Below, in pieces: positions 13,854 to 54,629 of a stretch of 64,000 nt of DNA. The DNA comes from an uncultured Alphaproteobacteria bacterium. GTDB lineage: Bacteria; Pseudomonadota; Alphaproteobacteria; RF32; CAG-239. The notes under the pieces are model-generated. The model saw nothing but the letters and a program-made list of their open reading frames with translations, was not told where the DNA came from and did not search any database. The translations under genes were made by a program, and so were the position numbers. The DNA is taken from assembly GCA_944390315.1 (NCBI GenBank), contig CALXPO010000009.1:10945-74944 (forward strand). The letters run 5' to 3'. How positions within the stretch are numbered: position 1 is the stretch's first letter; each line of letters starts with the position of its first letter.

Positions 13854-16800
13854 ATGGCTGAAAAAATTTTGCTGGGCGATGCCCTGAGAAGTATTATCTT
13901 AAAAGGTTCTAGGGAAACAGCCGCCGATTATGAACGTCAGTTGCGTGAAGCGGATAACGAACGTAAAAAAGCTCAGGCAGAGTTTAAGGAAAAAAGCGCC
14001 GGAAAAATAAAAGAACTGAAACAACAAATAAAAGAGTTAAGTGCCGAGATTAAAACCGCCGAACCGGCAAGAAAGAAGGAACTTGGCGAACAGATCAAAA
14101 AACTCAATGCCGAAATTGAACAATATAAAATTCCTCCCGTCAATCGTTTTACCTATCTTGACAGTGATATCAAGGCCTATGCCGGTGCCCAACTGTTGTT
14201 TAAGCCGATGTTGGGCGAAGAAGTTTTAAAAAGCAACAATATTGAATTTGACATAAACGAGCAGGGGCGTATTGAAGTCGACGCCAAGCAGCTGAGCGAC
14301 AGTGTTTTAGGCGACAAAATCAGAGAAGCTGCCGATTATATTTTCGTTCGTACTCGTGAGCTGAATGAAAAAATAACGCAAGCATCCGACATTAACAATA
14401 TTATTCGTGCCGATGCCAAAAATTTACTGAATATTGATGATGTTGAAAAAATAGATTTTGATTTAATTGAACGCTGCCACAAAGCCTATGAATATGAAAA
14501 TGCGGAAAAAGCACGCAGAAGAAAACAGGCAGAGCAACGCAAACAAGAAAGTTTGACCGGAATTAAAGTTATCAAAGAATATCCTGACGGCTATTCAATG
14601 GTTGAGATGCTGCCAAGCCCGGTTTATAACGAACAAGGAAAACTGTTGCATCACGCATCGCTGAAGTTTGAATCCGATGAAATGGGACACTGCGTCGGTC
14701 GCGGCGGCTACGACAAATATATTGGTGAAGAAGGGTGGCATTTTTATTCTCTGCGCGGGGCGGACGAAAACGGTGTAATGGTTCCGCACTGTACCATTTC
14801 AATAGAAAACGGCAAATTGGCACAAATTAAAGGTAATTCCAACGGTGCGGTTAAAAACAAATACATTCCCGATGTCAGAGATTTTGTAAAGTCTCTTGAT
14901 ATGCCGATACCTGAGTCCGAAAAATCAAGAATTGGTTATGTAAGAGATATCGATAGTCATGAAGTAGATCTGTTTGCCTTGGAAGCAGGTACCAGATTAA
15001 ATAAATTAAAATTGTCAGCCGGAGATCATAAGGGAATGAGGCTGGCTAATATTTCATATGTTAACACGCTCAGTTTTGAAGGCGGAGTAACTCAAAAAGA
15101 TTTTGAGGAAATTGCTAAAATCGGTAAAATAGAAAATCTGGTTTTGTCGGATGAAAACGAGGCTCAATGCTATGCACAAACTCTTCCCAAAGTTGAAAAA
15201 CTGATTATAAAAGGCAATTTTGCCATACCTGACCTTGGCAAAGTTCAGTATGCCAAATTCACGGCTATGCAGGAATATAATTTTGATTATAACTATGAGC
15301 AGCTGAAACAAATTGATTTTGATGAGAGAATTGTTCTCAATACCGAAAGAGCGCCAATCCTTGAAGAAGGAATTACGGGAGGTGCATGGGGCGATACCTC
15401 CAAACTTTCCACTAAAGAATTATTACTTAAAATGTTCGGCAGCAAGTGGGTGGAAAAGCACGTTTCCGAGCAAAACGGGCAATTGACCGTAGATACAGAT
15501 TTGAATTTTGACGGACGACGTCTGACCCGTTTTCCGTATGATTTCGGTCATGTAAAAATAAACGGAACGCTCAGTTTGCAAGATAATCTTTTAATGGATA
15601 ATGAGAGCCCCCTTGGATATCCCGAATGTCAAAAAATGATAATCAACCATTCGTACGGATGTCCGAAATTTGACCGATTTGAAACCTTACCGCGGTTGCC
15701 CGAAGGAATTGACTGTTTGGGTAGCAATGATATTGAGCTCTATACCAATTCCATCAGCAAAATTTCTCAAAAATTAAACATTACCAACGGCCAAAAATTA
15801 ACTCAGAAAGACGGCAAATTGTATTATCAAGGCGATTTGGATTTTTCAAAAGTTGCTGTTCTGATGCAAAGAAACTTAGAACTCGATATGAGCGAATTAT
15901 ATGTCGACGGTTCGGTTAAGGTTCCTCATAATACAAAATTTTTCCCCAATGCGAAAAAAATAGAAATTCCCTATGTGGACAGAGATATTCGTGTGCCGGA
16001 TGTGACGGAACAGATTATTGTGAACAATGCTTACGGCAATGACGGCCTGTACAATATTGAAGGAAAAAACTTAAAAAATATTACGTATAAAGATTATGTT
16101 CAGCTCAGAGCAACAGATTTACAAGGACTGAGTTCAAAACCTGACTACTGCGGAGAGTTTATTTTACGTCCGACGGAAGTTTCGGGAGTGGATTTGTCCG
16201 CTTGGAAATTGAAGCAAAAGCTACGTATATACGATGAACAGGTCTTCGAAAATGTGTCGATTCTGCCTCAGTGCCGCGAACTTAATATCGAATGTCCGCT
16301 GACAGAAACGATGCTTGCCAAGATAAATCCGCAAACCCAAACGCTTCGTTGTCAAAATTTGTTTGATGTCGATATGCTGCCGCGAGAAAGTCAGATAAAG
16401 TATGTCGGTGTAAGCTATCAGCAGACAAAAGATAAAGAAAGTTTTGACAAATTTATTCATCAGTTGTCTGAAAGAGGCATAATGATTGAGAACCTGAATA
16501 ATATTGATTATTCGCAAGATTTATCCGATATATTGGTCAAAAATGTTGAAATGCGTTGGAAAAGTGATATTAAAAATATTTCTAAATTTCCTAAAGCTGA
16601 AAAATTGCATATTTTAAGTCCGGGCTATGATTTTGAAAAAGATTTTTTAAAAGATGCAACTCCATATTTAAAGGAGTTGGAACTTGGTTATATGAATGAA
16701 AAGACGGATTTTTCGGCTTTGCCGTCTGATGTTAAACTTGAAAAACTACACATATATGACAGTTCCGTTCAGGCGGATATTTTTCGGCAACTGCCGACAT

Positions 16801-17615
16801 CTGTTAAGAGCGTTAACTTTTTAAGATGCAGAAATAATATTGATTTTGAAGCCATCAACAGTTTACCGAATTTGGAAAAACTGGAAATAAACCAAATGAA
16901 TGTTCCGGACAATGCCTTTGATAAAGTTGATCCTGAGCGTTTGAAACAAATTAAGATAAGCGGTGATGTGCGAACGGTTATGCGCGTACAAGAAATTTTA
17001 GCGATTCATCAGTTGCCGCCGACAGAAGAAAATAATAAAATTAAACAACTTCATCAATGGCTGACGGATGATAGAAATAATATTGATTATGCCGCTAAGC
17101 AAATTGTTTTTTATTCAACGGCCGCAGATGTGTTGAAGGGCAAGCATCCGCAACCGATAACGGCGGAAGAATTGTCGGCTCGCGTTCGTGGTGTTGAAAA
17201 GTTTAAATTAGACAGTTGTGCCAAAATTATTATGGCTAATGAACTCAATCATAAAACAGGCGATGATAAAATCGGCAGAACGGTTTTAGACGATTATAAG
17301 GGTAAAAAAGCCGGATATTATACTCATATGTCAAACTATTATGAGCGAGATAAAGATTTTGGCAAGATTGGTCAAATTATGAAAGCAGCGGTAACCCGTA
17401 ACATAAAACATCATCCTGATTTTAGGAAAGCTGAAAATATAGTTGAAGACAGAATGGGTGCGCATCAACGGTCGCTGCAATCCGATTTCAATCGATTGTT
17501 GAGTGAGCGAGCTGAAAGTCTCACAACTTATGAGTATTATAATCAATCGAGATTCAAGGCAGATAAATATAGCTTTAATCAAGCGGTGCAAAAAATGTGT
17601 GAATATAAACGCTGA
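13854..17615 (+). CDS. Large (1253 aa) coiled-coil / LRR-like repeat protein of unknown function; eukaryotic-like effector candidate
   Basis: N-terminal ~100 aa Lys/Glu-rich coiled coil. Conserved-looking His/Cys module (GHCVGRGGYDKYIGEEGWHFYSLRG…PHCTI). C-terminal half with leucine-rich-repeat-like periodicity (LEKLHIYDSS, LPNLEKLEINQMNV, LKELELGYMN). No signal peptide visible. Monocistronic between a strong promoter and a terminator. Confidence 0.5.
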   Translation: MAEKILLGDALRSIILKGSRETAADYERQLREADNERKKAQAEFKEKSAGKIKELKQQIKELSAEIKTAEPARKKELGEQIKKLNAEIEQYKIPPVNRFTYLDSDIKAYAGAQLLFKPMLGEEVLKSNNIEFDINEQGRIEVDAKQLSDSVLGDKIREAADYIFVRTRELNEKITQASDINNIIRADAKNLLNIDDVEKIDFDLIERCHKAYEYENAEKARRRKQAEQRKQESLTGIKVIKEYPDGYSMVEMLPSPVYNEQGKLLHHASLKFESDEMGHCVGRGGYDKYIGEEGWHFYSLRGADENGVMVPHCTISIENGKLAQIKGNSNGAVKNKYIPDVRDFVKSLDMPIPESEKSRIGYVRDIDSHEVDLFALEAGTRLNKLKLSAGDHKGMRLANISYVNTLSFEGGVTQKDFEEIAKIGKIENLVLSDENEAQCYAQTLPKVEKLIIKGNFAIPDLGKVQYAKFTAMQEYNFDYNYEQLKQIDFDERIVLNTERAPILEEGITGGAWGDTSKLSTKELLLKMFGSKWVEKHVSEQNGQLTVDTDLNFDGRRLTRFPYDFGHVKINGTLSLQDNLLMDNESPLGYPECQKMIINHSYGCPKFDRFETLPRLPEGIDCLGSNDIELYTNSISKISQKLNITNGQKLTQKDGKLYYQGDLDFSKVAVLMQRNLELDMSELYVDGSVKVPHNTKFFPNAKKIEIPYVDRDIRVPDVTEQIIVNNAYGNDGLYNIEGKNLKNITYKDYVQLRATDLQGLSSKPDYCGEFILRPTEVSGVDLSAWKLKQKLRIYDEQVFENVSILPQCRELNIECPLTETMLAKINPQTQTLRCQNLFDVDMLPRESQIKYVGVSYQQTKDKESFDKFIHQLSERGIMIENLNNIDYSQDLSDILVKNVEMRWKSDIKNISKFPKAEKLHILSPGYDFEKDFLKDATPYLKELELGYMNEKTDFSALPSDVKLEKLHIYDSSVQADIFRQLPTSVKSVNFLRCRNNIDFEAINSLPNLEKLEINQMNVPDNAFDKVDPERLKQIKISGDVRTVMRVQEILAIHQLPPTEENNKIKQLHQWLTDDRNNIDYAAKQIVFYSTAADVLKGKHPQPITAEELSARVRGVEKFKLDSCAKIIMANELNHKTGDDKIGRTVLDDYKGKKAGYYTHMSNYYERDKDFGKIGQIMKAAVTRNIKHHPDFRKAENIVEDRMGAHQRSLQSDFNRLLSERAESLTTYEYYNQSRFKADKYSFNQAVQKMCEYKR

Positions 17616-20509: not shown

Positions 20510-22050
20510 AACAAGAAACGGATGACAAAAAAGCTCTTATTCGACGCTTTATATTGATTGCGGTTGCGGTTATATTGTTAGGTGTGCTGAATTATGCTTA
20601 TTTCAAAAAGCAAATTTCTTCTAACAATGAAAAAATAACCGATTATGTAAAGGAAGAAGACCCGATGGAAAAATACCGTGATCCCGCCGTTGCCGGCATA
20701 TTTTATGCAGACAGTCCCAGCGAACTTTCCCATGAAGTTGATGGCTATCTGAATATGTTTAAAAACGGAAACAGACAAAAACCGAAAATTTTGATAGTTC
20801 CGCATGCCGGTTATCAATACAGCGGTTATGCTGCCGCCAAGGCCTATCGCGGACTTGAAAAATATGCCGATAAAATTAAAAACGTTATTTTGCTCGGACC
20901 GTCGCATCGTACGGCTCTCTACGGAATAGCCGTTTCCACGGCGGATTACTTTACAACGCCGCTCGGAAAAATTGCGCTAAATAAAGAAATTAATTCAGAG
21001 CTGGTTGAACATCGAGGTTTTGCCTATAATGACCGTGCTCACAAAGATGAGCATTCGCTTGAAGTGCAGTTACCGTTCCTGCAAAAAGTTTTGTCCGATT
21101 TCAAAATTATACCGCTCGTTTACGGAGAAATAAATCCACAAGACGTGGCCGAAGTTTTGCAGCCTTATTTGCAAAATGAGGATACGTTGTTGGTTGTATC
21201 GGCTGATTTGTCACACTATTATCCTTATGATGAGGCGAGAATAATTGATGCCGAAACCGCACAGAAAATTGAAGATACCAGCGCTGATATTGATTATCAT
21301 CATTCTTGCGGTGCCGGAGGAATCAACAGTGCTTTAATATTATCGGAAATTATGCGTCTTAAACCTGAAACTTTGGCTTTGATAAATTCGGGTGACAGTT
21401 CCGGAGCCAAAGACAAAGTTGTCGGCTACGGAGCCTGGACTTTTGCCGAAAGCAATTTGGAGCGGCAAAGGGATGCTCTGAGAGAATTTACAAAAGAATA
21501 TAGAGATGAGTTGTTGCGTTTGGCCAGAACATCTTTGGAAGAGGCCGTACTTCACCAACGAAAATACGAACCTTCACGCGATGATTTTTCCGAAGTTTTG
21601 TTTAATAAAGGTGCCACTTTTGTGACTTTGACCGAAGAAAATAATTTGCGAGGGTGCATCGGAACACTGTTGCCGCGGGAAGCCGTTGCGGCGGATATTG
21701 CTCAAAATGCTTATGCGGCGGCATTAAACGACCGTCGGTTTAATCCGGTGACGGTCGAAGAACTGGATAAAATCAAGATTTCGATATCATTTTTGACCGG
21801 ATATGAACGTATGATTTATCAAGATGAAGAAGATTTGTTAAAGATGATTGAAGCCGGTACGGACGGTATGGTTATTCGCGACGGCAACAGGCAGGGATTG
21901 TTTTTGCCTTCGGTATGGGAGCAAATTCCCGATAAAAAAGAATTTTTACAAAATCTCAAGCTCAAAGCAGGTATGAGCCCGAGTTATTGGTCAAACAGCA
22001 TTAAAGTTTATCGTTTCAGAACCGTGGAGATAAAGGAAAATGAAAATTAA
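20506..22050 (+). CDS. Fused MEMO1-like (AmmeMemoRadiSam protein B) + AMMECR1 (protein A) domains
   Basis: N-terminal half has Memo motifs (RDPAVAGIFYAD, ILIVPHAGYQYSGYAAA, GPSHR, SADLSHYYP). C-terminal half is an AMMECR1 domain (GATFVTLTEENNLRGCIGTL…). A TTG start at 20506 gives an N-terminal TM-like segment. The alternative ATG start (MEKYRDPAVAG) is near 20665. Confidence 0.7.
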   Translation: MKQETDDKKALIRRFILIAVAVILLGVLNYAYFKKQISSNNEKITDYVKEEDPMEKYRDPAVAGIFYADSPSELSHEVDGYLNMFKNGNRQKPKILIVPHAGYQYSGYAAAKAYRGLEKYADKIKNVILLGPSHRTALYGIAVSTADYFTTPLGKIALNKEINSELVEHRGFAYNDRAHKDEHSLEVQLPFLQKVLSDFKIIPLVYGEINPQDVAEVLQPYLQNEDTLLVVSADLSHYYPYDEARIIDAETAQKIEDTSADIDYHHSCGAGGINSALILSEIMRLKPETLALINSGDSSGAKDKVVGYGAWTFAESNLERQRDALREFTKEYRDELLRLARTSLEEAVLHQRKYEPSRDDFSEVLFNKGATFVTLTEENNLRGCIGTLLPREAVAADIAQNAYAAALNDRRFNPVTVEELDKIKISISFLTGYERMIYQDEEDLLKMIEAGTDGMVIRDGNRQGLFLPSVWEQIPDKKEFLQNLKLKAGMSPSYWSNSIKVYRFRTVEIKENEN

Positions 22051-23755
22051 CGGATACGAGATTAAATATAGTGAACAGGATTTGGAAAATAAAATTAACA
22101 ATCAGACTTTGGAAATAAAGCTGATAACGCCTGAATTTGAGGGATATAAAAGTTTAAGCGAAGGCAATCAAAAAGCCTTGAAACATTTGGTTGCCGCTGC
22201 CAAAATAATAAATGACGTGAGTTTGGAGCAAGACCATCCGCACAACCTTGCGCAAAAACAAGCTCTGGAAGCCGCCGCGTCCGACAATAATCAGGCCAAA
22301 TTGGCTTTGATGTTGTTTAACAGTTTGAACGGTTTGGCCGGTTATAACGGAATTGATAAAGAACCGATTGAAATTTTTGAGGGTTTGCATTTGTTGCCGG
22401 GACATAATTTTTATCCTGAAGATTTATCAACTGATGAGTTATGCCGCATTTTGAAAAAAATGTTGGCGGAAGGTAAAATCAAGCAGGTAAGTGATATTTT
22501 GAGTGCCCGTACGATGGTCAGAAAAAAAGGTAATGAGCTTGAGGGGATAGATTATACCGAATATTTCGAAAAAGAATTTTCGGCTGTTGCCAACGAATTG
22601 GAAGTTGCGGCGCACTATTGCGATGACGAGGCTTTCAAGGATTATCTCGGCTGGCAGGCGCAAGCCCTTATTCAAAACAATCCCGATATGGATATGTTGG
22701 CCGACAAACATTGGGCTGTTCTGCAAGATTGCCCGTTGGAATTTACACTCAGCCGCGAGAATTATGATGATGAAATTACACCTTCGGTTTATAATGACGC
22801 AGAATTGAAAGCCTTATTGGAAAAGAACGGTATCGAAGCCGTATCCAAAGATATGCTCGGTGCCAGAGTCGGAATTGTGAACAAAGCCGGTACCGATTTA
22901 ATTTTACAATTCAAAAAACATATTCCCGAATTGGCGCATAAAATGCCTTATGCCGACCGCTATCACCAAAGTATTTTGGACGGAGAAGAACTCAAACAGA
23001 CGATGGTTGATGTCGATTTGGCGGATTTGGAAGGAGATTATGCTCAATGCCGCGGCGGAATTACCACGGCACAGAATTTGCCCAATAATGATAAGTTGGC
23101 GGTAAAGACCGGTGGCGGTCGTCGTAATGTCTATCATCGCCAGGTCAGACAATGTGTGGACAAAGAAAAAGAAAGAAAAATGCTCGAGATGTTGGTTGCG
23201 CCCGAATTGCATCAATATTTTGATAATGAGGCCGATCATTTGTTTGTCATCGGTCACGAAAACGGACATTCTCTCGGTCCTGACAGTAGTTATCAAAACG
23301 CTTTGGGAAACTATAAGCATATTCTTGAGGAACACAAAGCCGATACTATTTCTTTGACATTTATGTCCGACTATGTCAAAGCCGGTGTCATTGACGCAAA
23401 AACCTTGAAGAAAGTCTATGTCAGTTACATTTGCGGACGGATGTTTTTGATTGCGCGTCCGCATATGATGCTGCCGCATCGTATGGGCGAGCTGATACAA
23501 TTCAACTATTTGCGTGAAAAGGGAGTTATCAAAGAAAATGCGGCAGGAAAAGTCGAAATTGACTTGGAAAACATGCAAACGGCCTTAAATCAACTGTTGC
23601 AGGAAACGATTGAAGTTCAATTGTCAAAATCGCCCGAAAAAGCTGCCGCTTTTGTGGAAAAGTACAGCCAATGGTCCGAACTTTCGCAGAAAATTGCGTC
23701 CGTACGCCAAAAACTCGGGGTTAAACCTTATAAACGAATTGTCAGAAGTTTTTAA
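22040..23755 (+). CDS. Putative zinc metallopeptidase, DPP III (M49)-like
   Basis: HEXXGH-type motif GHENGHSLGP followed by EEHKAD, resembling the M49 second zinc-ligand motif EEXR/KAE/D. 571 aa. 11-nt overlap with the upstream gene. Family assignment is tentative. Confidence 0.4.
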   Translation: MKINGYEIKYSEQDLENKINNQTLEIKLITPEFEGYKSLSEGNQKALKHLVAAAKIINDVSLEQDHPHNLAQKQALEAAASDNNQAKLALMLFNSLNGLAGYNGIDKEPIEIFEGLHLLPGHNFYPEDLSTDELCRILKKMLAEGKIKQVSDILSARTMVRKKGNELEGIDYTEYFEKEFSAVANELEVAAHYCDDEAFKDYLGWQAQALIQNNPDMDMLADKHWAVLQDCPLEFTLSRENYDDEITPSVYNDAELKALLEKNGIEAVSKDMLGARVGIVNKAGTDLILQFKKHIPELAHKMPYADRYHQSILDGEELKQTMVDVDLADLEGDYAQCRGGITTAQNLPNNDKLAVKTGGGRRNVYHRQVRQCVDKEKERKMLEMLVAPELHQYFDNEADHLFVIGHENGHSLGPDSSYQNALGNYKHILEEHKADTISLTFMSDYVKAGVIDAKTLKKVYVSYICGRMFLIARPHMMLPHRMGELIQFNYLREKGVIKENAAGKVEIDLENMQTALNQLLQETIEVQLSKSPEKAAAFVEKYSQWSELSQKIASVRQKLGVKPYKRIVRSF

Positions 23756-27869: not shown

Positions 27870-28745
27870 ATGAGCAAAATAGGTGAAAAAATAGCAGCAA
27901 AACTCAAAAGTGTCGGTAATGCCGAATTTTTGGATGATACAACGCAAAATCCGGTTAGTGTTCCTTTTTGGGAGTTGAGCTTTTTGCCGATAGGAATTTT
28001 GATATACAGATTTAAACAATTTTTAAAAATAGCATCTCTATATGCCGTTTTTATCAGCTTGTTGGCTTTTATATCGCAAACCAGTTATGTATGCGGTCTG
28101 TACAATAGTGAAAATGCCTTTTTGGGCTGTCAATATTCATTAGTCGGTTACATCATTTTCTTTTTGTTACGCTTATTAATAACGGCAATGTTTTTAAGAA
28201 TATGGTACAAAACGGCAGTTTGCGGCGGAACAATCAATTATCGGGAAATGTTTACACTAACCAAAACAGACTGGAAAATTTGGTGCGGCATGCTTATTGT
28301 TATTTTCTTTGTGTGCCTTCCGGCTATTTCAATGTATTTGTTGTTAGAACGCGTTCCCAACCCCGATTGGCGGATTGAAAGTCTGTTTTTTGCCATAGCA
28401 TCTTCCGGATTCTGGCTACCGTTCATTGGTTTAAGATATTCTGCGGTTTTTGCATTTGTGTTGAGTGAAGAAAAGCGCCCGAATTTAGGTATGTTTTGGC
28501 AAAGGACAACAGGAAATACTCTTAAGATAATAGTCTCGCTAACACTGATGGTTATTTTGAATGCAATTGTCTTTATGTATTTTGCGTCAGCGGCATCCTA
28601 TATGATAGAACATGTGTCCGTGTTTGGCGAAGTCATATCGGAATGGCTGTATAGCGTAATTTATTTATTGATGGCGGCTTCTTTTTGCAGTTTGGCAATT
28701 ATTCAAAAAGAGGCTTTATTCAGCTGGTATGCAGTAAACAAATAA
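27870..28745 (+). CDS. Polytopic membrane protein, unknown function
   Basis: 291 aa with about 6 hydrophobic segments. No recognisable motif. Followed by a terminator. Confidence 0.45.
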   Translation: MSKIGEKIAAKLKSVGNAEFLDDTTQNPVSVPFWELSFLPIGILIYRFKQFLKIASLYAVFISLLAFISQTSYVCGLYNSENAFLGCQYSLVGYIIFFLLRLLITAMFLRIWYKTAVCGGTINYREMFTLTKTDWKIWCGMLIVIFFVCLPAISMYLLLERVPNPDWRIESLFFAIASSGFWLPFIGLRYSAVFAFVLSEEKRPNLGMFWQRTTGNTLKIIVSLTLMVILNAIVFMYFASAASYMIEHVSVFGEVISEWLYSVIYLLMAASFCSLAIIQKEALFSWYAVNK

Positions 28746-31964: not shown

Positions 31965-32411
31965 TTGATGAATTTTATAAAAAATCATTGGTTTGGTTTA
32001 ATCGTATCATTGATAACATTAGCATTTTTGTGCGTTTTTGCTTTGGTATTGATAGCGCCGCACCAAGATGAACAAGGACGAGGCTTTGTCCCCTGTATTG
32101 AAAAAATGGCGGAAAATTTGCATGAATGCCGCGGACAAAATCTCTGTGCTTTAAACTGCGTTATTGAAAATACATTTTGCAATATTAAAGTTATCGGACA
32201 GGGAATAAAACAGTGGGCTGCCGGTGAACAACCGCGCCCATGGTCAAATTACCTGTTTGAACCGGAATTAAAACAGCCGTCTGCCGCCGATGATTTTGAA
32301 ACCGAAGAAAGTCTGGATGAATATTATCAAAACAATCCCGATATCTCTTTGGAAATGTCGGAATTGTACAAACTTAATCAACAACTGGAGCAAGATACAA
32401 ATGAACAATAA
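31965..32411 (+). CDS. Small N-terminally anchored Cys-containing protein, unknown function
   Basis: ATGA overlap with the upstream gene. One TM (LIVSLITLAFLCVFALVLIA) followed by a Cys-rich soluble segment and an acidic tail. Its stop overlaps the pepF start. Confidence 0.45.
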   Translation: MMNFIKNHWFGLIVSLITLAFLCVFALVLIAPHQDEQGRGFVPCIEKMAENLHECRGQNLCALNCVIENTFCNIKVIGQGIKQWAAGEQPRPWSNYLFEPELKQPSAADDFETEESLDEYYQNNPDISLEMSELYKLNQQLEQDTNEQ

Positions 32412-34197
32412 TAATTTACCGGCATGGGATTTAAGTGATTTATATCAAAGCATTGATGATGAACGTATTACCCGTGACATGGAAAACTATCGAGATTTTT
32501 GTATTGATTTCGCCAATCAATATAAGGGAAAGTTGGCTCAACTGGACAGTCGGGAAATGTTGAAAGCCCTAAAGGCTTATGAAAAAAATTCACTTTTGAT
32601 AAGTCGTGTCGGCGGTTTTGCTTATCTCAATATGGTAACTCAAATGAAAAATCAGGCCGCCGTTGCTTTTTATCAAAATGTCAGCGAAAAATTGACTGAT
32701 TACAGCAAACCGTTAATTTTTCTGAGTCTTGAAATAAATCAGTTGCCCGAAGAAAAAATTCAACAATGGCTGACAGACGAACAACTTGCTTTCTACAAAC
32801 CGTGGTTTGAACGTTTGCGTCGTTTTAAGCCTTATGAATTATCCGAACCGGTCGAAGAAGTATTGCTCGAAAAATCAATGACGTCCTCTTCCGCCTGGGT
32901 CAGACTGTATGAAGAAACTTCTTCCCGCTTGGAATATAAAATTGACGGCAAAAGCTATAATGATGCCGAAATTTCCAAATTGCTGCTTAATAAAGATGCA
33001 GATTTGCGCCATCGCGCCGGCGCCGAAATTAATCGTGTCGCTAAAGAAAATGCCGATTTGTTCACTTTTATCTACAATATGATTATTAAAGATAAGGCAA
33101 TAGAAGATGAAAAGAGAGGTTTTAGAGAGCCGGTATCATCGCGTAATTTGTCGGAAAATGTACCCGATAAAACGGTTGAAACTTTGGCAGAAACGGTAAG
33201 GGCAAATTATAAAAATATTGCCCATCGCTTTTATAAACTCAAAGCCAAATGGTTGGGGGTTGAAAAAATTTCATATTGGGATAGAAACGCACCTTTGCCT
33301 TTTGCGGCAGATAGGGAATACAGTTGGGAAGACGCGGTAAAATTGGTTTTAGATGCGTATAAATCATTTTCGCCCAAACTTTATGATATAGCCAAAGACT
33401 TTTTTGAAAACAATTGGATTGATGTGCCGCCGCGTGACGGTAAACGCAGCGGAGCTTTTTGTGCGCCGGTCAGTGCCGATTTTCATCCCTACCTGATGTT
33501 AAATTTTACCGGAAAACAAAATGATGTTTTGACTTTGGCGCATGAGTTGGGACATGGCTGTCACCACCAAACCAGAACGAAAAACGGCGAATTGAACGAA
33601 TACTCGCGTATGACAACCGAAGAAGTAGCTTCGGTGTTTGGCGAAATGATTACTTTTCAGTCGATGGTTTCAAAATTGCCGGATGGTCCGGAAAAACTGG
33701 CTTTGATAGCTTCCAAAGTCAGCGATATGATTAATACGGCGATTCGTCAAATAGCTTTTCACTTTTTTGAAACTCGGGCACATGCCGAACGCAAAAACGG
33801 TGAACTGAGTAAAGACCGGTTATGTGAGATTTGGCAAGAAGAAATGGCTGTCAGCTTAGGAGAAGCCGTAGAGGTCGGAGACGACAGTCGCTATATTTGG
33901 TCGCAAGTCGGACACTTTTTCTTTTTACCATTCTATGTTTACGCCTATTCTTTTGCCGATTGCTTGGTAAATTCTTTATATCAGGTCAGTCAGGAAGGCC
34001 GAGTCGAAAATTTTGCCGATAAGTATTTGGAACTTTTATCTCAGACGGCTATAGGAGATTATGAAAAATTGTTGGCTCCGTTTGGGCTCAATCCCAACAG
34101 TCCGGATTTTTGGAATAAAGGTTTAAGTCTGATTTCCGGTTACATTGACGAGTTGGAAAGATTGGATAAAGTTATAGAAACAAAGAAAAAGCAATAA
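32400..34197 (+). CDS. pepF: Oligoendopeptidase F (M3B family)
   Basis: HELGHGCHH zinc motif. Start chosen at MNNNNLPAWDLSDLY, the typical PepF N-terminus. This makes an ATGAACAATAA overlap with the upstream stop. Confidence 0.8.
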
Positions 34198-34259
34198 AAA
34201 AACGAGAAATGACACATTTTATAAAAGCCTCCGTCAACGGGAGGCTTTTATATTTAAGA

Positions 34260-35039
34260 CTATCTAAAGAACAACTCTTTGGTAATTCTCTTTGATTCTT
34301 CCAAATAGTGTTGAGAAGCATTTGGAGCGCCGAGATAGGATAGTGAAAAACTGGTAATCAAAAATCCGAAAGGATTCTTCAAAGCATCTTCATGTGTTCT
34401 ATTTTTAAATTTCACGAAACGTAGGCGCATAACGGCTCGCCAAATGTTTATATCCGGATTCGGATTTTTGGGTAAATAATCGATGGTACGGAACTGAACT
34501 TGCCATAGACCGGTACCGAGTGGTCTTATCCAATCAATTTCCACGTCGCGCATCATGCTTTTATTGCGAAATTGCATCATATTGAATTTGGCATCATAGC
34601 GCGTGAATTCATCAAAAATGAAGGGAGAAGAATACCAATAGACATAGGACCCCGGTCCCCAGCGCCGCATCAGTTCATCGTAGTCATTTGTAATGAGATA
34701 ACGCAGCATGATATAGTTTGTGATATGCTCCTCATTAATCAAATTTCCGACGGGATAATTTGTTTCCATAGGTTGAGCACGCTCGATTTGGCTAAAATAG
34801 TGATCTATGTAGAACAATTGCGGCGCACTTGAGCGTTGAGGAAGCATAACATAGATAGCGCTGGCTAACATCATATTAAAGCAGATGGACATGGCGGCAA
34901 TGATAACCAAAAAGCGTGATGTCCACAAATAACGTCTTTCAGGCATAGCATCAACATGCACTTGTTCAGGAAAGAGACCGAGTTTGTCAGGACTTTCTTT
35001 TTCTTTATACTTAAAAATTGTTTTAAAAATGTCTAGCAT
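34260..35039 (-). CDS. VirB8-like type IV secretion component (orphan)
   Basis: One TM near residue 45-65 (FLVIIAAMSICFNMMLASAIYVML). Then a periplasmic domain with VirB8-like motifs (EEHITNYIMLRYLITNDYDE resembling the (F/Y)V..RE.Y motif; C-terminal NPFGFLITSFS resembling NPLGF.V..Y). About 259 aa, typical VirB8 size. No other virB genes in the window. Confidence 0.5.
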   Translation of the reverse strand: MLDIFKTIFKYKEKESPDKLGLFPEQVHVDAMPERRYLWTSRFLVIIAAMSICFNMMLASAIYVMLPQRSSAPQLFYIDHYFSQIERAQPMETNYPVGNLINEEHITNYIMLRYLITNDYDELMRRWGPGSYVYWYSSPFIFDEFTRYDAKFNMMQFRNKSMMRDVEIDWIRPLGTGLWQVQFRTIDYLPKNPNPDINIWRAVMRLRFVKFKNRTHEDALKNPFGFLITSFSLSYLGAPNASQHYLEESKRITKELFFR

Positions 35040-35202
35040 GCGTTTTTTATCAATTCAAAATTAAACTCTGTATGTTAATTTTATACAACAAAGCAGCTAA
35101 AAAGCAAATAAATACTGCGAAAGAAGAAAAAAATACTACCAAGTTAGAAAATATTAGTGTAAATATATAACAGTATCTTTTATGCATAAAGGGTTTTAAC
35201 TG

Positions 35203-37107
35203 ATGAAAAAGCTATTAGTATCTTTAATTTTACCGATGTTGTTTATTGCATCGTGCGGACGAAACACGACAGTAACAGCTCCGACCGCTGCAACATATAA
35301 TCCGGAGTCGGTTTTGTACAATGATTGGGATCGTGCGGTTCGAGTAGATGTAGACATGCAAAATATGTATGTAAGCACGCCTACGAAAATCGAAAAGCCG
35401 ATAGATTTGTACATGGCCATGGCTTTGGCATTAAAATATAACTATACGCGCCGTTTGATTACTTACGAAGATAGTATTATTCGTGCCGGTCATTCTCCGG
35501 TCAACCGTTTGCCCGAAATTGTAAGTCATGCAGGCTATATTAATGATACAAATTCGGAAATGAGTCCGGATTTGAAAGTTGCGTGGAATATGCTTGATAT
35601 GTCTATGGTTTATTGCTTGAGCCAAGATAAAGAATATAAGGCCAGCGTAGCTTTTGAAGAAAGCCGCAAGGTTATTCACAACATACTTCAAGAAACACGT
35701 ACGCTGTATTGGAAAACTTTAACGGCTCAACGCTTGTTGCCGGTTATTGATGATATGACCGAATATATGACTTTGGAAGTTGATGAAATGAACTCCCAAG
35801 CCAAAAATTTAGATAAAAAAGGCGAGGCTCCGACAGTTAACCAACTGGTTAAGAAAAGACAATATATGGAAGCAATTAAAGAATTATCATCGCTCAAACG
35901 AGATATGGAAACGGCCCAAACACGTTTGGCCAGTTTAATGGGATTACATCCGTCAACAGAATTTAAGTTGGTTGGCTCGGAATATGGTAATTTTGACTTG
36001 CCGAAAATTAAAAATTCTTTGGCCGATCTGGAGTGGTTGGCCTTAAGCAATCGTCCGGAATTGCGTGAACATGATTTGGCCGTAAATGCTGAACGTATGA
36101 AATTGGTTATAAAAGATTTTAAGGATCCCGGTCTCAAACAATATAAAAATGATCCCGAATTTTATAACCGTATGTGGTCAAAACAAGCTCGCGAATTGGG
36201 AATGAGCGTGTTTGAAGATCCCGCAAGCCCGAATGTTTTGGATATGGAGCATCTTCGTCGTCAAAGAATGTCTGCTCTTATTTTGAGCCAGGTCTATGTT
36301 GCTTGGGCGCAATATATGTCGGCGGTAGAAGATTATCAAATTAATATGGAAATTGCTTCAACTTCCGAAAATATTGCCGAAGATTTTACAATTGCCGACG
36401 GCAGCCAAGCCGAGAAAAGCCAATTGGAGGCTTCTCGCGCTATTGAAGATGAAGTCAAAGCATTCAAATCTTATGCAGATTTACAAGAAGCATTGGGCAA
36501 CTTGTATGCAACAATCGGTTTAGATGCGATACCTTATTATATGCTTAATGAAAAGCCATCCAAAATTGCCGTATATTTGCGTAATACTTTGGAAAAATGG
36601 GCAAATGGAGATTTTATGCCCGACAATCGTCCGTATCTGCTCAATATTCCGGCTAAACGCCCGCCGGTTAATCTGAGTTCTGATACTTTATTGCCGGATG
36701 TTAAAGGAGAAACAGGCAAGAAAATTGTTGTTCAGGTGCCCGATTCGGCTTTATCAAGAATGGATTTTGAAGGAAAAGTAATAAGCCGAGCCGGAACCAT
36801 TGATGACAAGCCTTTGCCGAAATGGTTGACTTATAACGAAGAAACAAGAACTTTCTACGGTACGGCAATGCCCGGAGAAGAAGGAACATATAACATAAAA
36901 GTATATTTTAGTGATGAAGAAGGCAATGTCGCTTATATGACCTTCAAAATCACGGTTAAAGAAGTTTTTGTTCCTTCCTTGACTGTAAAAGGACAAATTG
37001 ACGGAAGTACCGCAACAGTCTTGAAGCGTTGTGCAGGAAACAATTGCAAAGACGACTATATCGTTGAAGATGCGGTTGGAAAAGATATCATAACTTCTGC
37101 TCAATAA
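35203..37107 (+). CDS. Outer membrane factor (TolC/NodT-like) lipoprotein with C-terminal cadherin-like Ig (He_PIG) domain
   Basis: Lipobox LFIASC. OEP-like helical repeats (IDLYMAMALALKYNY, TAQTRLASLMGLHP). C-terminal ~120 aa resembles a putative Ig / dystroglycan-type cadherin-like domain (KPLPKWLTYNEETRTFYGTAMPGEEGTYNIKVYFSDEEGN). Confidence 0.5.
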   Translation: MKKLLVSLILPMLFIASCGRNTTVTAPTAATYNPESVLYNDWDRAVRVDVDMQNMYVSTPTKIEKPIDLYMAMALALKYNYTRRLITYEDSIIRAGHSPVNRLPEIVSHAGYINDTNSEMSPDLKVAWNMLDMSMVYCLSQDKEYKASVAFEESRKVIHNILQETRTLYWKTLTAQRLLPVIDDMTEYMTLEVDEMNSQAKNLDKKGEAPTVNQLVKKRQYMEAIKELSSLKRDMETAQTRLASLMGLHPSTEFKLVGSEYGNFDLPKIKNSLADLEWLALSNRPELREHDLAVNAERMKLVIKDFKDPGLKQYKNDPEFYNRMWSKQARELGMSVFEDPASPNVLDMEHLRRQRMSALILSQVYVAWAQYMSAVEDYQINMEIASTSENIAEDFTIADGSQAEKSQLEASRAIEDEVKAFKSYADLQEALGNLYATIGLDAIPYYMLNEKPSKIAVYLRNTLEKWANGDFMPDNRPYLLNIPAKRPPVNLSSDTLLPDVKGETGKKIVVQVPDSALSRMDFEGKVISRAGTIDDKPLPKWLTYNEETRTFYGTAMPGEEGTYNIKVYFSDEEGNVAYMTFKITVKEVFVPSLTVKGQIDGSTATVLKRCAGNNCKDDYIVEDAVGKDIITSAQ

Positions 37108-37140
37108 AAAAGATACACCCCCAGGAAACTGGGGGTTTTA
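37108..37140 (+). terminator. Rho-independent terminator
   Basis: aaaaaagatacacccccaggaaactgggggtttta: 6-bp G/C stem followed by a T-run. Confidence 0.7.
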
Positions 37141-51326: not shown

Positions 51327-52394
51327 ATGCAAAAAACCAAAGAAATCATCAATCAGTTGGAGGAGCTTAAAACAAAATCTTCGTCCGTAACCAAGAAAAA
51401 AATACGCCCCGGAAAAATAGAATCTGTCGGCGGTTTTTTGAATAACGGTGCCGTATCTTTACGTTTTATTTTTCACGAAAGAGAAAATATTGTTTTTGCA
51501 CTGCTGCAGTTGGTGGTTATCGGAATTATGTATTTCATATGGGCAAAGAGTTTGTCCTTTATTCCCGAAGACTATTGGCGGGATGATAATACCGATGATT
51601 TGGTTTCCGTTATTGTCTTATTATGGTCGTTTGTTTTGGTTGGAATTGCAACTTTTCCTTTAGGACTGCTTACGGCTTGTATGTGCGCTTCTTATCTGTT
51701 GCATTTTGAAGGACGTGATTCTACTGTTGCGGAATGCTTGAAAATTGTGCTGCCGAAATCTTGGAGTATATGGATATTCAGTTGGTTCGACGGTTGGTGG
51801 ACGGCTTGGCAGATATTGGAAAGATTGCCAAAGAAAAATGATAAGACGCCTTTGACCGTTAAACTTGCTCATGAGGCAGCTTATCAAGCATGGAAAATAG
51901 CATCTCTCGGTGTAATTCCGTCGTTGCTTTCGGGAAACGGCATTGCTGAAGCTGCCAAAAACTCAATATCTTTGTTATCTTCCAAATTTTCAATGCTTGC
52001 CAAACTGAGATTGGGATATTCGCTCATTTGTTGGATATTTGGAATAGGCGCTTATATTTCGATGTTTTTTTTAATTAGTCATTTGAGTGATGTTCCCGCG
52101 TTTGCAACCTTATTTAAAACCGTCAGCGGATTTTATTTGTTTGCTGGAATCCCGACAATAGCGGCATTAGTATTTGTTATGTTAATTTTTCGTCCGATTT
52201 ATATTATTTCGGCTTGTCGAATTTATGCCTATAATGCTCGTGAACACAATCAACCGATTTTGTTGCCTGAACCTATGCCAAGAATCTTAAGTGCATTTGT
52301 ATTCTTTGTTGCTTTGGTTATTATTGCCTTTGTCGCATGGCAATATGTATCATATTTCGGCGGTGACAATTTATTGAATTTGTTGCCTAAATAA
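51327..52394 (+). CDS. Membrane protein of unknown function
   Basis: 355 aa. Soluble ~50 aa N-terminus then about 8 TM helices. AAGGAGA RBS. Confidence 0.45.
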   Translation: MQKTKEIINQLEELKTKSSSVTKKKIRPGKIESVGGFLNNGAVSLRFIFHERENIVFALLQLVVIGIMYFIWAKSLSFIPEDYWRDDNTDDLVSVIVLLWSFVLVGIATFPLGLLTACMCASYLLHFEGRDSTVAECLKIVLPKSWSIWIFSWFDGWWTAWQILERLPKKNDKTPLTVKLAHEAAYQAWKIASLGVIPSLLSGNGIAEAAKNSISLLSSKFSMLAKLRLGYSLICWIFGIGAYISMFFLISHLSDVPAFATLFKTVSGFYLFAGIPTIAALVFVMLIFRPIYIISACRIYAYNAREHNQPILLPEPMPRILSAFVFFVALVIIAFVAWQYVSYFGGDNLLNLLPK

Positions 52395-52397
52395 TGT

Positions 52398-53222
52398 TTA
52401 GAAATTGTATGCTTTCCCTTTGTAGACGGCAAGTATAATATTTTGTTTGACGAAGGGGCGCTGGTTGCTTTGTACAAAAGTTAAAGTCGAAGTTTCTTTA
52501 TTGTAACCGCAGCCGATATAGCCTCTTGCCAAAAGTTTATCAATAAGATTAAAACTTGCAAAATGAACGTTCACTCCACGTGGGGGAAGGTCGGTTTTCG
52601 TTTTTAAGTTATGGTGCATTAAAGCAATTTTGCCGCCGTCGGCAGGATCAATTGCGGTGGCATACATTCTGAAACCGTTGTTAAAATAGGGCGGCATATT
52701 CCAATGATTGCTGCGGTCGATAATTGAAGCGGCACCGTTGCAGTGTAGATTTTTTGCCAGTTCCAAACGATAATCAATCATAATTTGGTTGAGATTGTTT
52801 CCTCTGTAAGCCGGCAAAACACTATCCGCACCGAGTGCGGCTATTCGTGTGTCGGAAGTTTTGAAAAAATTGAGCGGACTGTTGGGAATTTCGTCGGAAA
52901 ATTGTTGATGGTTGCGGCAAATCTTCAGATATGACATGGCAATCAATTTTTCCCCGACAAAAACACCGATATATTGTGTATCTGGATTTTTAATGGCTTG
53001 ATGATAGTAAGAAGTTTCGTGTTTGTGGATAAAACACTCTTCACCCAAACCGAGGTGGCGGTATATCTCTGCGGATAAGATACCCATATTTTCGGCGTCA
53101 TTACCGGAAAGCGGACGAATAGTGAAATGGGGTCCGTTATCAACTTTTTGACCGTCAATTTTATTTAATCTTCCGCGCCAAACAGAATGTCCGTTTATTG
53201 TATATTTTTGTATATTATTCAT
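52398..53222 (-). CDS. Hypothetical cytoplasmic protein, possibly GNAT-fold
   Basis: 274 aa, no TM. Weak acyl-CoA-binding-like motif (SVLPAYRGNNLNQIM). Convergent with the preceding membrane protein with a 3-nt gap. Confidence 0.35.
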   Translation of the reverse strand: MNNIQKYTINGHSVWRGRLNKIDGQKVDNGPHFTIRPLSGNDAENMGILSAEIYRHLGLGEECFIHKHETSYYHQAIKNPDTQYIGVFVGEKLIAMSYLKICRNHQQFSDEIPNSPLNFFKTSDTRIAALGADSVLPAYRGNNLNQIMIDYRLELAKNLHCNGAASIIDRSNHWNMPPYFNNGFRMYATAIDPADGGKIALMHHNLKTKTDLPPRGVNVHFASFNLIDKLLARGYIGCGYNKETSTLTFVQSNQRPFVKQNIILAVYKGKAYNF

Positions 53223-53240
53223 TTTCTGCTCTCTCTAACA

Positions 53241-53270
53241 AAAAAAAAGGCGGGATAAACCCGCCTTATC
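53241..53270 (-). terminator. Rho-independent terminator (minus strand)
   Basis: On the minus strand: aggcgggtttatcccgcc followed by tttttttttg. 7-bp GC stem plus a 9-T run downstream of the Cys-rich secreted protein gene. Confidence 0.7.
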
Positions 53271-53444
53271 TTTGAACTGTATATTTCTAACACATACATA
53301 CAAACCCATACGGCGGGAAATAAATTTCCAGACGTTTAGATTTGATTTGTTTTATAAAGTTAGAAATCACAATTAACCTCATTATTTGTGTATCAACTAT
53401 TTTCAAAAATATAGATAAAGCGTCGGTGAGTCAAGAATTTTTTA

Positions 53445-54620: not shown

Positions 54621-54629
54621 ATCTGTTTC

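What the first reader, a model, noticed from the sequence alone, without database searches (positions are those of the whole stretch)
34260..35039. Orphan VirB8-like gene between pepF and an OMF lipoprotein
The 259-aa protein has the VirB8 layout: short cytoplasmic N-terminus, single TM, then an NTF2-like periplasmic domain. It shows VirB8-like motifs (…NYIMLRYLITNDYDE…, C-terminal NPFGFLITSFS). No virB2-B11 or virD4 genes are in the 64-kb window. Stand-alone VirB8 paralogs are known in some alphaproteobacteria with scattered or duplicated T4SS genes, but they may also represent domesticated components. The convergent placement next to a TolC-like lipoprotein with an Ig-like domain is notable.
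Basis: partly seen in the sequence, partly recalled or inferred. Interest (0 to 1): 0.55.

Follow-up and report, generated by a model that had tools for sequence, protein, structure and literature searches.

The report
Third VirB8 copy paired with lipoprotein
This gene is a genuine but extra, separately located copy of the type IV secretion protein VirB8, always found head-to-head with a large lipoprotein gene in a group of uncultured gut bacteria, and a related genome carries a full secretion machine elsewhere, so it is not a relic.

Summary
The 259-aa ORF at 34260-35039 (-) is real and belongs to the VirB8 family. Pfam scores 65.6 bits against a cutoff of 23.2. The predicted fold matches solved VirB8, TrwG and TraE structures, and the NPXG motif is kept.

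It is "orphan" only locally. In a relative with a 60% identical protein, one 107-kb contig carries the same gene pair and, about 50 kb away, a T4SS operon that already holds two VirB8 genes. The window gene therefore represents a third paralogue clade.

The gene is divergent (head-to-head, 163 bp) with the 634-aa lipoprotein gene and convergent with pepF.

That divergent pairing is strict: 35 of 35 genome loci and 73 of 73 informative metagenome loci have it. None has another T4SS gene within 10 kb. Both genes are under strong purifying selection, and the cytoplasmic tail is the most conserved part of the protein.

The lipoprotein is only tentatively TolC-like. A moderate-confidence model gives a fold match, but Pfam OEP and profile comparisons find nothing.

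Most likely the protein is an accessory, inner-membrane-anchored VirB8 scaffold that links the lipoprotein to the chromosomal T4SS. This is inferred, not shown. It is a new variant of a known kind, of moderate interest.

The parts
34260..35039 (-). Stand-alone VirB8-family gene ('VirB8-III'), 259 aa
   Evidence: ORF. Pfam PF04335 65.6 bits, profile positions 17-210 of 213. AF2 periplasmic domain pLDDT above 90. Foldseek top 41 PDB hits are all VirB8/TrwG/TraE/RvhB8. pN/pS 0.009-0.037.
34911..35039 (-). Cytoplasmic N-terminal tail, aa 1-43, with the motif SPDxLGxFPExVHVxAMPERRYLW. It is the most conserved part of the protein.
   Evidence: 14 of 43 positions are invariant, against 15 of 141 in the NTF2-like domain. 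Residues 1-27 are specific to the third clade; the RRYLW juxtamembrane motif is shared with the operon's VirB8-II.
34845..34910 (-). Transmembrane helix, about aa 44-65
   Evidence: Best Kyte-Doolittle window is residues 44-62. AF2 helix 33-65.
34329..34751 (-). Periplasmic NTF2-like VirB8 domain, about aa 97-237, including NPFG (aa 222-225)
   Evidence: pLDDT about 90. TM 0.75-0.86 (target-normalised) and rmsd 2.3-3 A to Brucella, Bartonella, Agrobacterium VirB8 and TraE. N222, P223 invariant in both alignments; G225 invariant in A1 and at least 90% conserved in A2.
34263..34328 (-). C-terminal extension, aa 238-259, predicted helix; absent from operon-encoded VirB8-I and VirB8-II
   Evidence: Alignment. 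Helix 239-258 at low confidence. Weakly conserved, 1 of 22 positions invariant.
35040..35202 (.). Shared divergent intergenic (promoter) region
   Evidence: Head-to-head arrangement. Conserved blocks across 14 lineages.
35100..35116 (-). Conserved 17-nt element AGTATTTATTTGCTTTT (16 of 17 positions invariant or nearly so), 61-77 nt upstream of the VirB8-like ATG, followed by a TGTATAAAAT -10-like box
   Evidence: Conserved in 14 lineages, with an A for C at position 13 in five of them. Unique exact match in the window, exact in L057 and L044, and absent upstream of T4SS operon genes.
34220..34252 (.). Bidirectional terminator-like hairpin between the convergent pepF and VirB8-like genes
   Evidence: RNA fold -19.5 kcal/mol, z = -5.2. 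The simple terminator scan did not list it.
35203..37107 (+). Partner gene: 634-aa lipoprotein with a lipobox (IASC, Cys18), a helical N-terminal region of about 450 aa with four very long helices, a He_PIG Ig-like domain (aa ~497-586) and a Cys-containing C-terminal tail
   Evidence: Pfam He_PIG 43 bits. C18, C610 and C615 invariant. AF2 model pLDDT 61. Foldseek: N-terminal part to TolC/OprM/OprN/CmeC/NodT, Ig domain to dystroglycan/SraP. Adjacent and divergent to the VirB8-like gene in 35 of 35 and 73 of 73 loci.
37117..37136 (.). Terminator-like hairpin after the lipoprotein gene, shared with the convergent glgP

Best explanation
The ORF encodes a functional VirB8-family protein that belongs to a third, lineage-specific paralogue clade ('VirB8-III'). 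It is found in uncultured animal-gut Alphaproteobacteria that NCBI labels 'Azospirillum sp. 51_20' or 'uncultured Alphaproteobacteria'. In at least one of these lineages the genome carries a chromosomal T4SS operon (VirB2/TrbC, VirB4, VirB8-I, a VirB7-like ORF, VirB8-II, VirB9; VirB10 and VirB11 are seen in a related operon). The window gene has moved out of that operon. It has its own promoter and terminator and forms a fixed head-to-head module with a large outer-membrane-type lipoprotein. Proposed mechanism, which is inferred: the protein sits in the inner membrane with its N terminus in the cytoplasm. Its strongly conserved cytoplasmic tail and juxtamembrane RRYLW motif would dock onto the T4SS inner-membrane complex, as VirB8 subunits contact VirB4 in the R388 structure. 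Its periplasmic NTF2-like domain would oligomerise through the retained NPXG surface and hold or position the helical, Ig-bearing lipoprotein. The result would be an accessory envelope-spanning element of the T4SS. Shown here: family membership, fold, topology, purifying selection, strict pairing with the lipoprotein, and presence of a T4SS on the same contig in a relative. Inferred: a T4SS in the window's own genome, physical contact with the lipoprotein, and contact with VirB4.
For: Family and fold. Three paralogue clades, with the stand-alone family separate from operon VirB8-I and VirB8-II. The window protein is 36% identical to operon VirB8-II and 28% to VirB8-I. Same-contig link: the pair at about 30 kb and the T4SS operon at about 81-96 kb of BRZ_M NODE_415 (107,238 bp). 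Related VirB4 operons are abundant in human-gut contigs. Pairing with the lipoprotein holds in 35 of 35 genome loci, even where pepF and glgP are replaced, and in 73 of 73 informative metagenome loci. Purifying selection on both genes: pN/pS 0.009-0.037 for the VirB8-like gene and dN/dS about 0.03-0.04 for the lipoprotein. The tail is the most conserved region. VirB8 contacts VirB4 in R388, as summarised in the review PMC12857230. A strongly conserved promoter element across lineages with saturated synonymous sites. Lipobox with invariant Cys18 and an invariant C-terminal Cys pair fit an extracytoplasmic lipoprotein. Precedent for separately transcribed, co-expressed VirB8 paralogues in Rickettsiales (PMC4676284).
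Against: No T4SS gene was found in the window or within 10 kb of the pair in any of 108 informative related loci. The T4SS link rests on a single metagenomic contig from a relative whose protein is 60% identical, and a chimeric assembly cannot be excluded. The T4SS operon already has two VirB8 genes, so a third is not obviously needed. The conserved promoter element is not found upstream of the T4SS operon genes I could see, so there is no sign of a shared regulon. No interaction was tested. The C-terminal extension is poorly conserved. The lipoprotein model has low confidence (pLDDT 61), and its location in the outer membrane is inferred only from the lipobox.
Confidence: 0.5

Rival explanations
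1. Co-opted module independent of the T4SS: the VirB8-like protein and the lipoprotein form their own two-component envelope device, for example an inner-membrane anchor for an outer-membrane helical or channel-like lipoprotein, or an envelope tether or adhesin platform. On this view it no longer contacts T4SS subunits.
For: The pair is a self-contained unit with its own promoter region and terminators. It is never next to T4SS genes in 108 informative loci. The promoter element is not shared with the T4SS operon. The operon has its own two VirB8 genes. A clade-III relative, L046, also sits among housekeeping genes without the lipoprotein.
Against: The most conserved part is the cytoplasmic tail, including the RRYLW motif shared with operon VirB8-II. 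That points to a conserved cytoplasmic or inner-membrane partner, which in known systems is VirB4/VirB3. A T4SS is present on the same contig in a relative. A basal member of the clade, L042, still sits in the first-VirB8 slot of a T4SS operon.
Confidence: 0.25
2. Modulatory paralogue: like the divergent Rvh-II duplicates proposed for Rickettsiales, the extra VirB8 competes with or replaces operon VirB8 subunits to regulate T4SS assembly or activity. On this view the adjacent lipoprotein is functionally unrelated or only co-regulated.
For: Precedent of duplicated, co-expressed RvhB8-I and RvhB8-II with unresolved roles, hypothesised to autoregulate secretion. Retention of the NPXG dimerisation motif could allow mixed oligomers with the operon copies. 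Recurrent tandem duplication of the stand-alone gene suggests dosage or hetero-oligomer effects.
Against: Adjacency with the lipoprotein in every informative locus, across lineages with otherwise rearranged neighbourhoods, is hard to explain without functional coupling. Unlike RvhB8-II, this protein is highly conserved and keeps canonical motifs.
Confidence: 0.15
3. Decaying or non-functional remnant of a lost or relocated T4SS cluster.
For: No other T4SS genes in the 64-kb window.
Against: Intact ORF of constant length (256-260 aa) in hundreds of lineages. pN/pS 0.009-0.037. Conserved promoter element and terminator. 34 invariant residues across 44 sequences.
Confidence: 0.02

Closest known systems
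Canonical P-type T4SS VirB8 (Brucella and Agrobacterium VirB8, R388 TrwG, pKM101 TraE)
   Same: Bitopic N-in topology, the ERR..W juxtamembrane motif, the periplasmic NTF2-like fold (TM 0.75-0.86) and the NPXG motif. Pfam PF04335 is above threshold.
   Different: Only 15-21% identical over the structural alignments. Fails the NCBIfam VirB8 equivalog model, 18.8 against 188 bits. Has an extra, highly conserved N-terminal tail of about 27 aa and a C-terminal extension of about 22 aa. It is not encoded in a T4SS cluster but is paired with a lipoprotein gene.
Duplicated RvhB8-I / RvhB8-II of the Rickettsiales rvh T4SS (PMC4676284)
   Same: Several VirB8 paralogues in one genome. The operon order B8, B7-like, B8, B9, (B10, B11) in the gut relatives mirrors rvhB8-II, rvhB7, rvhB8-I, rvhB9-II, rvhB10, rvhB11. 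One paralogue is transcribed separately from the main cluster.
   Different: Here there are three paralogues, not two. The separate copy keeps NPXG and is highly conserved, whereas RvhB8-II is fast-evolving with a degenerate motif. The organisms are gut Alphaproteobacteria not assigned to Rickettsiales in their records. No special sequence or structural closeness to Rickettsia RvhB8 was seen. The other rvh hallmarks (B4 and B9 duplication, multicopy B6) were not tested.
DotI/DotJ (Legionella Dot/Icm) and the PrgD/PrgL, TraH/TraM VirB8-like pairs of Gram-positive systems
   Same: VirB8-fold paralogues that co-exist in one system and form hetero- or homo-oligomers.
   Different: Those paralogues are encoded within their T4SS loci. 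The structural match is weaker: the IcmL-like protein 5cnl scores E about 5e-3.
Lipidated outer-membrane factors (OprM, OprN, NodT, CmeC; the TolC family), as comparison for the partner protein
   Same: N-terminal lipobox, two pairs of very long helices, and Foldseek alignments of 340-550 columns to OMF channels at probability 1.0. One homologue is named 'TolC family protein' by NCBI.
   Different: No Pfam OEP hit at E below 1. No profile-profile signal against the genome's own TolC. No detectable internal repeat. The beta-barrel segments are not modelled. There is an extra C-terminal He_PIG Ig-like domain and a Cys pair. No adjacent membrane-fusion or pump genes.

Membership tests
VirB8 (Pfam PF04335) | Match to the family HMM above the gathering threshold over most of the model | tested here: met
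   65.6 bits against 23.2, profile positions 17-210 of 213. The family profile hits Bartonella VirB8 4lso at E 2.7e-7, and also Brucella, TrwG and TraE.
VirB8 (Pfam PF04335) | Bitopic topology: short cytoplasmic N terminus, one TM helix, periplasmic C-terminal domain | tested here: met
   Hydrophobic segment at 44-62, basic residues on the N-terminal side, AF2 helix 33-65.
VirB8 (Pfam PF04335) | NTF2-like periplasmic fold superimposable on solved VirB8 structures | tested here: met
   Foldseek top 41 hits are all VirB8-family proteins, TM (target) 0.75-0.86, rmsd 2.3-3 A.
VirB8 (Pfam PF04335) | NPXG motif of the major dimerisation site | tested here: met
   NPFG at residues 222-225. N222 and P223 are invariant in both alignments; G225 is invariant in A1 and at least 90% conserved in A2.
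VirB8 (Pfam PF04335) | Encoded within a T4SS gene cluster | tested here: not met
   No T4SS homologue in the window or within 10 kb in 35 genome loci and 73 informative metagenome loci.
VirB8 (Pfam PF04335) | A T4SS (VirB4 and others) present in the same genome | tested here: inconclusive
   Met for a relative whose protein is 60% identical, on one 107-kb contig. The window's own genome beyond these 64 kb could not be read.
VirB8 (Pfam PF04335) | Assembles into the T4SS inner-membrane complex or arches and is required for secretion | not testable with these tools
   Needs interaction or genetic experiments, or multimer modelling.
NCBIfam VirB8 equivalog (NF010439 / PRK13865) | Score above the curated equivalog cutoff | tested here: not met
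   18.8 bits against a cutoff of 188, and only residues 40-78 matched.
RvhB8-II-type divergent paralogue (Rickettsiales rvh) | Degenerate NPXG motif and accelerated evolution relative to the other paralogue | tested here: not met
   NPFG retained and the protein highly conserved. Definition taken from PMC4676284.
RvhB8-II-type divergent paralogue (Rickettsiales rvh) | Separate transcriptional unit away from the B8-B9-B10-B11-D4 islet | tested here: met
   Own promoter region and terminator, with housekeeping neighbours.
rvh-type T4SS (for the relatives' operon) | Duplicated B8, B9 and B4, multicopy B6, no B5 (PMC11077975) | tested here: inconclusive
   B8 duplication with a B7-like ORF between the copies, followed by B9, was seen. 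B4 and B9 duplication and the identity of the four unannotated ORFs after VirB4 were not established.
Outer membrane factor / TolC family (partner lipoprotein) | Pfam OEP (PF02321) repeats | tested here: not met
   No OEP hit at E up to 1. hhalign against the window's TolC and a TolC alignment gave probability below 4%.
Outer membrane factor / TolC family (partner lipoprotein) | OMF fold: alpha-barrel hairpins plus beta-barrel strands, with an internal duplication | tested here: inconclusive
   Foldseek hits to TolC, OprM, OprN, CmeC and NodT at probability 1.0 but TM 0.35-0.47 and rmsd above 11 A, on a model with pLDDT 61. The internal-repeat test was negative but had low power.
   VirB8 is the only Pfam family at E up to 1. 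Non-VirB8 folds appear only from rank 44, at E above 4e-3.

The most novel reading that the evidence does not exclude
A VirB8 scaffold has been recruited as the inner-membrane partner of a TolC-like, Ig-domain-bearing lipoprotein. This would create either a T4SS-independent two-protein envelope-spanning device or an alternative TolC-like outer-membrane conduit or anchor for a T4SS. Neither architecture has been described for any T4SS.
Probability: 0.2. Interest if true: 0.7.

Novelty: new variant of a known kind. Interest (0 to 1): 0.42.

Why it matters
VirB8 is a core assembly and scaffold subunit of type IV secretion systems, and the roles of extra VirB8 paralogues such as RvhB8-II and DotJ remain unresolved. 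This finding gives a clean natural case: a third paralogue under strong constraint, physically separated from the machine's operon, and locked to one specific envelope lipoprotein in prevalent but uncultured human and animal gut Alphaproteobacteria. If the two proteins interact, that would identify a new accessory element of a T4SS, or a co-option of the VirB8 fold. It would also point to an undescribed T4SS, with gene order reminiscent of the Rickettsiales system, in common gut commensals. If they do not interact, the gene is simply one more relocated T4SS paralogue.

Tried and rejected
1. Lipoprotein as a sequence-level TolC relative. Pfam and NCBIfam gave no hit. hhalign against the window's TolC and against a seven-sequence TolC alignment gave nothing. 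A test for an internal repeat was negative, but the genuine TolC control was also barely detectable, so the test had low power.

3. A shared cis-element between the stand-alone gene and the T4SS operon. The 17-nt conserved motif is absent from the T4SS upstream regions.

4. Source names to tie VirB4 clusters to the same organisms.

5. A second same-contig link, using the most prevalent VirB4 cluster (P0401) and lipoprotein cluster (P0555). There were no shared contigs among those shown.

6. Literature on T4SS in RF32 / CAG-239 gut Alphaproteobacteria. Nothing relevant was found.

7. The window's 1253-aa unannotated ORF as a homologue of the operon's 1261-aa ORF. No similarity.

8. Classical dN/dS against the window. 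Synonymous sites are saturated because of a GC shift, so I used unsaturated pairs of relatives instead.

9. Homology between the unannotated neighbours of outgroup VirB8 copies (L041, L042, L046) and the lipoprotein. None was found.

10. Taxonomy look-up of 'Azospirillum sp. 51_20'. The tool rejected the name. The RF32 / CAG-239 placement is from my own knowledge and was not verified.

Full report
**Observation.** The window holds an ATG-initiated ORF at 34260..35039 on the minus strand that encodes 259 aa. The strongest hydrophobic segment is residues 44-62, preceded by PERRYLWTSR.

The left neighbour is pepF (32290-34197, plus strand; Peptidase_M3). The right neighbour is a 634-aa protein (35203-37107, plus strand) with a lipobox and a He_PIG Ig-like domain.

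The orientation was misread. The VirB8-like gene and the lipoprotein gene are divergent, head-to-head and 163 bp apart. pepF and the VirB8-like gene are convergent, separated by a strong hairpin at 34220-34252 (-19.5 kcal/mol, z = -5.2).

No other T4SS gene is in the 64 kb. Pfam scans of the ORFs of 150 aa or more that do not lie within a longer ORF, plus one 148-aa ORF, found only housekeeping, transport and surface-protein families. A tblastn of every protein from three related T4SS operons, small ORFs included, hit only this ORF.

**Family and fold.**
- Pfam VirB8 (PF04335) scores 65.6 bits against a gathering threshold of 23.2, covering profile positions 17-210 of 213.
- The stricter NCBIfam VirB8 equivalog is not met, at 18.8 against 188 bits.
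- The single sequence barely detects solved VirB8 proteins (E about 0.9). A 44-sequence family profile finds Bartonella, Brucella, TrwG and TraE at E 3e-7 to 2e-3.
- An AlphaFold2 model has pLDDT above 90 across the periplasmic domain.
- Its top 41 Foldseek matches in the PDB are all VirB8-family proteins, with target-normalised TM 0.75-0.86 and rmsd 2.3-3 A. Unrelated NTF2-like folds appear only from rank 44.
- The NPXG motif (NPFG) is conserved across the family, with N222 and P223 invariant.

**Who has it.** The protein belongs to a large family: 405 hits, nearly all 256-260 aa, at 50-93% identity. They come from human, ruminant and mouse gut MAGs labelled 'Azospirillum sp. 51_20', 'uncultured Azospirillum sp.' or 'Alphaproteobacteria bacterium'. 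From my own knowledge, not verified here, these correspond to the GTDB order RF32, family CAG-239.

The gene is under strong purifying selection. pN/pS is 0.009-0.037 in unsaturated pairs of relatives. Against the window itself pN is 0.04-0.08, with synonymous sites saturated.

**A conserved two-gene module.** In all 35 genome loci the lipoprotein gene lies immediately upstream and divergent. This holds even where pepF or glgP are replaced by nrdDG, tgt, mutS or other housekeeping genes.

I sampled 80 further loci from metagenomes through the lipoprotein. All 73 informative loci have the divergent VirB8-like neighbour, and 8 of them have two tandem copies. The remaining 7 are truncated within 1 kb of the gene. 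None has a homologue of any other T4SS-operon protein within 10 kb.

The lipoprotein is equally conserved (60-94% identity) and constrained (dN/dS about 0.03-0.04).

The shared intergenic region contains a 17-nt element, AGTATTTATTTGCTTTT (window 35100-35116, minus strand), conserved in 14 lineages with one variable position, followed by a TGTATAAAAT box. It persists although synonymous sites are saturated between these lineages. It is unique in the window and absent upstream of T4SS operon genes.

**Where the rest of the T4SS is.** An exhaustive profile search gave 722 relatives. I sampled the genomic context of four intermediate ones:
- **P0276** lies in a T4SS operon: VirB4, five unannotated ORFs, VirB8, a 66-aa ORF, VirB8, VirB9/CagX, a 2717-aa ORF ending in a TrbI/VirB10 domain, then VirB11.
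- **P0264 (L042)** sits in the first-VirB8 slot of such an operon. It is followed by a VirB7-like lipoprotein and the start of a second VirB8.
- **P0272 (L046)** is stand-alone among housekeeping genes, without the lipoprotein.
- **P0267 (L044)** shows the pair arrangement with a tandem duplicate.

The VirB4 of the P0276 operon has many relatives of about 810 aa at 65-73% identity on abundant human-gut contigs.

Matching contig lengths led to the key result. One contig, ERZ24773451 BRZ_M NODE_415 (107,238 bp), carries two things:
- the stand-alone VirB8-like gene (P0040, 60% identical to the window's) with its lipoprotein, at about 30 kb;
- at about 81-96 kb, the operon TrbC x2, a 96-aa VirB3-sized ORF, VirB4, four unannotated ORFs, VirB8 (250 aa), a 72-aa ORF, VirB8 (241 aa) and VirB9.

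The stand-alone gene is therefore a third VirB8 paralogue in a T4SS-bearing genome. Two caveats apply. This is a single metagenomic contig from a relative, and the window's own genome outside the 64 kb could not be examined.

**Relationships among the paralogues.** A neighbour-joining tree separates three clades: operon VirB8-I, operon VirB8-II, and a third clade holding every stand-alone copy plus L046 and the L042 copy. The window protein is 36% identical to operon VirB8-II and 28% to VirB8-I.

Third-clade proteins have an extra N-terminal tail, SPDxLGx(Y/F)PExVHVxAxPERRYLW, whose RRYLW part is shared with VirB8-II. They also have a C-terminal extension of about 22 aa that the operon copies lack.

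The cytoplasmic tail is the most conserved region, with 14 of 43 positions invariant. The NTF2-like domain has 15 of 141 invariant and the C-terminal extension 1 of 22.

**The partner lipoprotein.**
- Cys18 in an IASC lipobox and Cys610/Cys615 are invariant.
- The AlphaFold2 model has only moderate confidence (pLDDT 61). It shows four very long helices (143-205, 212-245, 345-399, 404-438) and an Ig-like sandwich at about 500-586.
- Foldseek aligns the N-terminal ~450 residues to TolC, OprM, OprN, OprJ, CmeC and NodT over 340-550 columns at probability 1.0. TM-scores are low (0.35-0.47) and rmsd is high.
- The Ig-like domain matches dystroglycan and SraP.
- Pfam OEP is absent, and profile-profile comparisons with the genome's own TolC are negative.

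'TolC-like' is thus a lead, not an established membership.

**Mechanism.** In R388, VirB8 subunits contact VirB4 and the periplasmic domains form trimer-based 'arches' (review PMC12857230; PDB titles). The strongest constraint here falls on the cytoplasmic tail, the RRYLW motif is shared with operon VirB8-II, NPXG is retained, a T4SS lies on the same contig, and the lipoprotein pairing is strict.

The best-supported model is therefore an accessory VirB8 scaffold. It would dock on the T4SS inner-membrane complex and hold or position the lipoprotein. I give this a confidence of about 0.5.

The rivals are:
- a T4SS-independent two-protein envelope module (0.25);
- a modulatory paralogue, with the lipoprotein merely adjacent (0.15);
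- a decaying remnant (0.02, effectively excluded by the selection data).

**Comparison and novelty.** Duplicated, co-expressed VirB8 paralogues, one of them transcribed separately, are known in Rickettsiales rvh systems (PMC4676284). Those systems are regarded as a Rickettsiales signature (PMC11077975).

The gut-clade operon shares the B8, B7-like, B8, B9 order. I did not establish rvh membership, and the proteins show no special similarity to Rickettsia RvhB8.

Three things differ here: there is a third paralogue, it is highly conserved with canonical motifs, and it is strictly coupled to a large helical, Ig-bearing lipoprotein. I found no literature on T4SSs in this gut clade.

I rate it a new variant of a known kind, with interest 0.42.

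Noticed in passing
whole window, compared with L007, L009, L011, L012, L014: The window is 38.8% GC (GC3 of the VirB8-like gene is 0.42). Its closest relatives, at 92-93% protein identity, are 50-52% GC (GC3 0.64-0.74). Synonymous differences are beyond saturation (pS 0.83-0.90). This is a marked recent compositional shift between closely related gut lineages.
   Followed up: partly
window 51327-55869: A 336-aa ankyrin-repeat protein (54630-55640, minus strand) sits beside three ORFs with no Pfam hit (51327-52394, 52398-53222, 53445-54620) and a tRNA-Pro (55793-55869). This could be a T4SS-effector-type islet.
   Followed up: no
window 60845-63955 (-); L069-L071: A 1036-aa autotransporter lies in the window. 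In close relatives an autotransporter gene lies directly downstream of the lipoprotein gene, in place of glgP.
   Followed up: no
window 13854-17615 (+), 22040-23755 (+), 27870-28745 (+): Large ORFs (1253, 571 and 291 aa) with no Pfam family. The 571-aa and 291-aa ORFs are syntenic in relatives. The 1253-aa ORF is not related to the 1261-aa ORF of the T4SS operon.
   Followed up: partly
L047-L056, L060, L061 (T4SS operon loci): The chromosomal T4SS operon of the gut relatives lies back-to-back with a Tcp-like type IVb pilus or secretin cluster (T2SSE ATPase, PilO-like, secretin, TcpQ). Four ORFs between VirB4 and VirB8-I (about 560-590, 260-275, 395 and 1235-1260 aa) have no informative Pfam hit and may be VirB6-like.
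   Followed up: no
L041 12364-20517: The VirB10 homologue of this operon is 2717 aa. It has about 24 beta-flower repeats and DUF3659 repeats ahead of the TrbI domain.
   Followed up: no
L038 10001-11572; L044 9254-10741; 8 of 73 metagenome loci: The stand-alone VirB8-like gene has been tandemly duplicated repeatedly (the copies are 49% identical in L038), always next to the same lipoprotein gene.
   Followed up: partly
P0297, P0302, P0388 (representative library): Proteins of 402-621 aa contain three or four separate VirB8-profile stretches, so they appear to be multi-domain or fused VirB8 proteins.
   Followed up: no
L042 2980-8255; L062 4077-5424: One T4SS operon variant has runs of secreted, helical paralogues of about 220 aa (VirB5-like?) after VirB4, and an 800-aa secreted protein ahead of the VirB8 slot. 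The VirB4 of the similar operon at L062-L068 is very prevalent in human-gut samples, including Hadza and Nepali ones.
   Followed up: partly
window 31965-32411 and 32290-34197: The listed pepF ORF start (32290) overlaps the preceding 148-aa ORF by about 120 nt. The true pepF start is probably a downstream Met. The 148-aa ORF is conserved in synteny across relatives.
   Followed up: no
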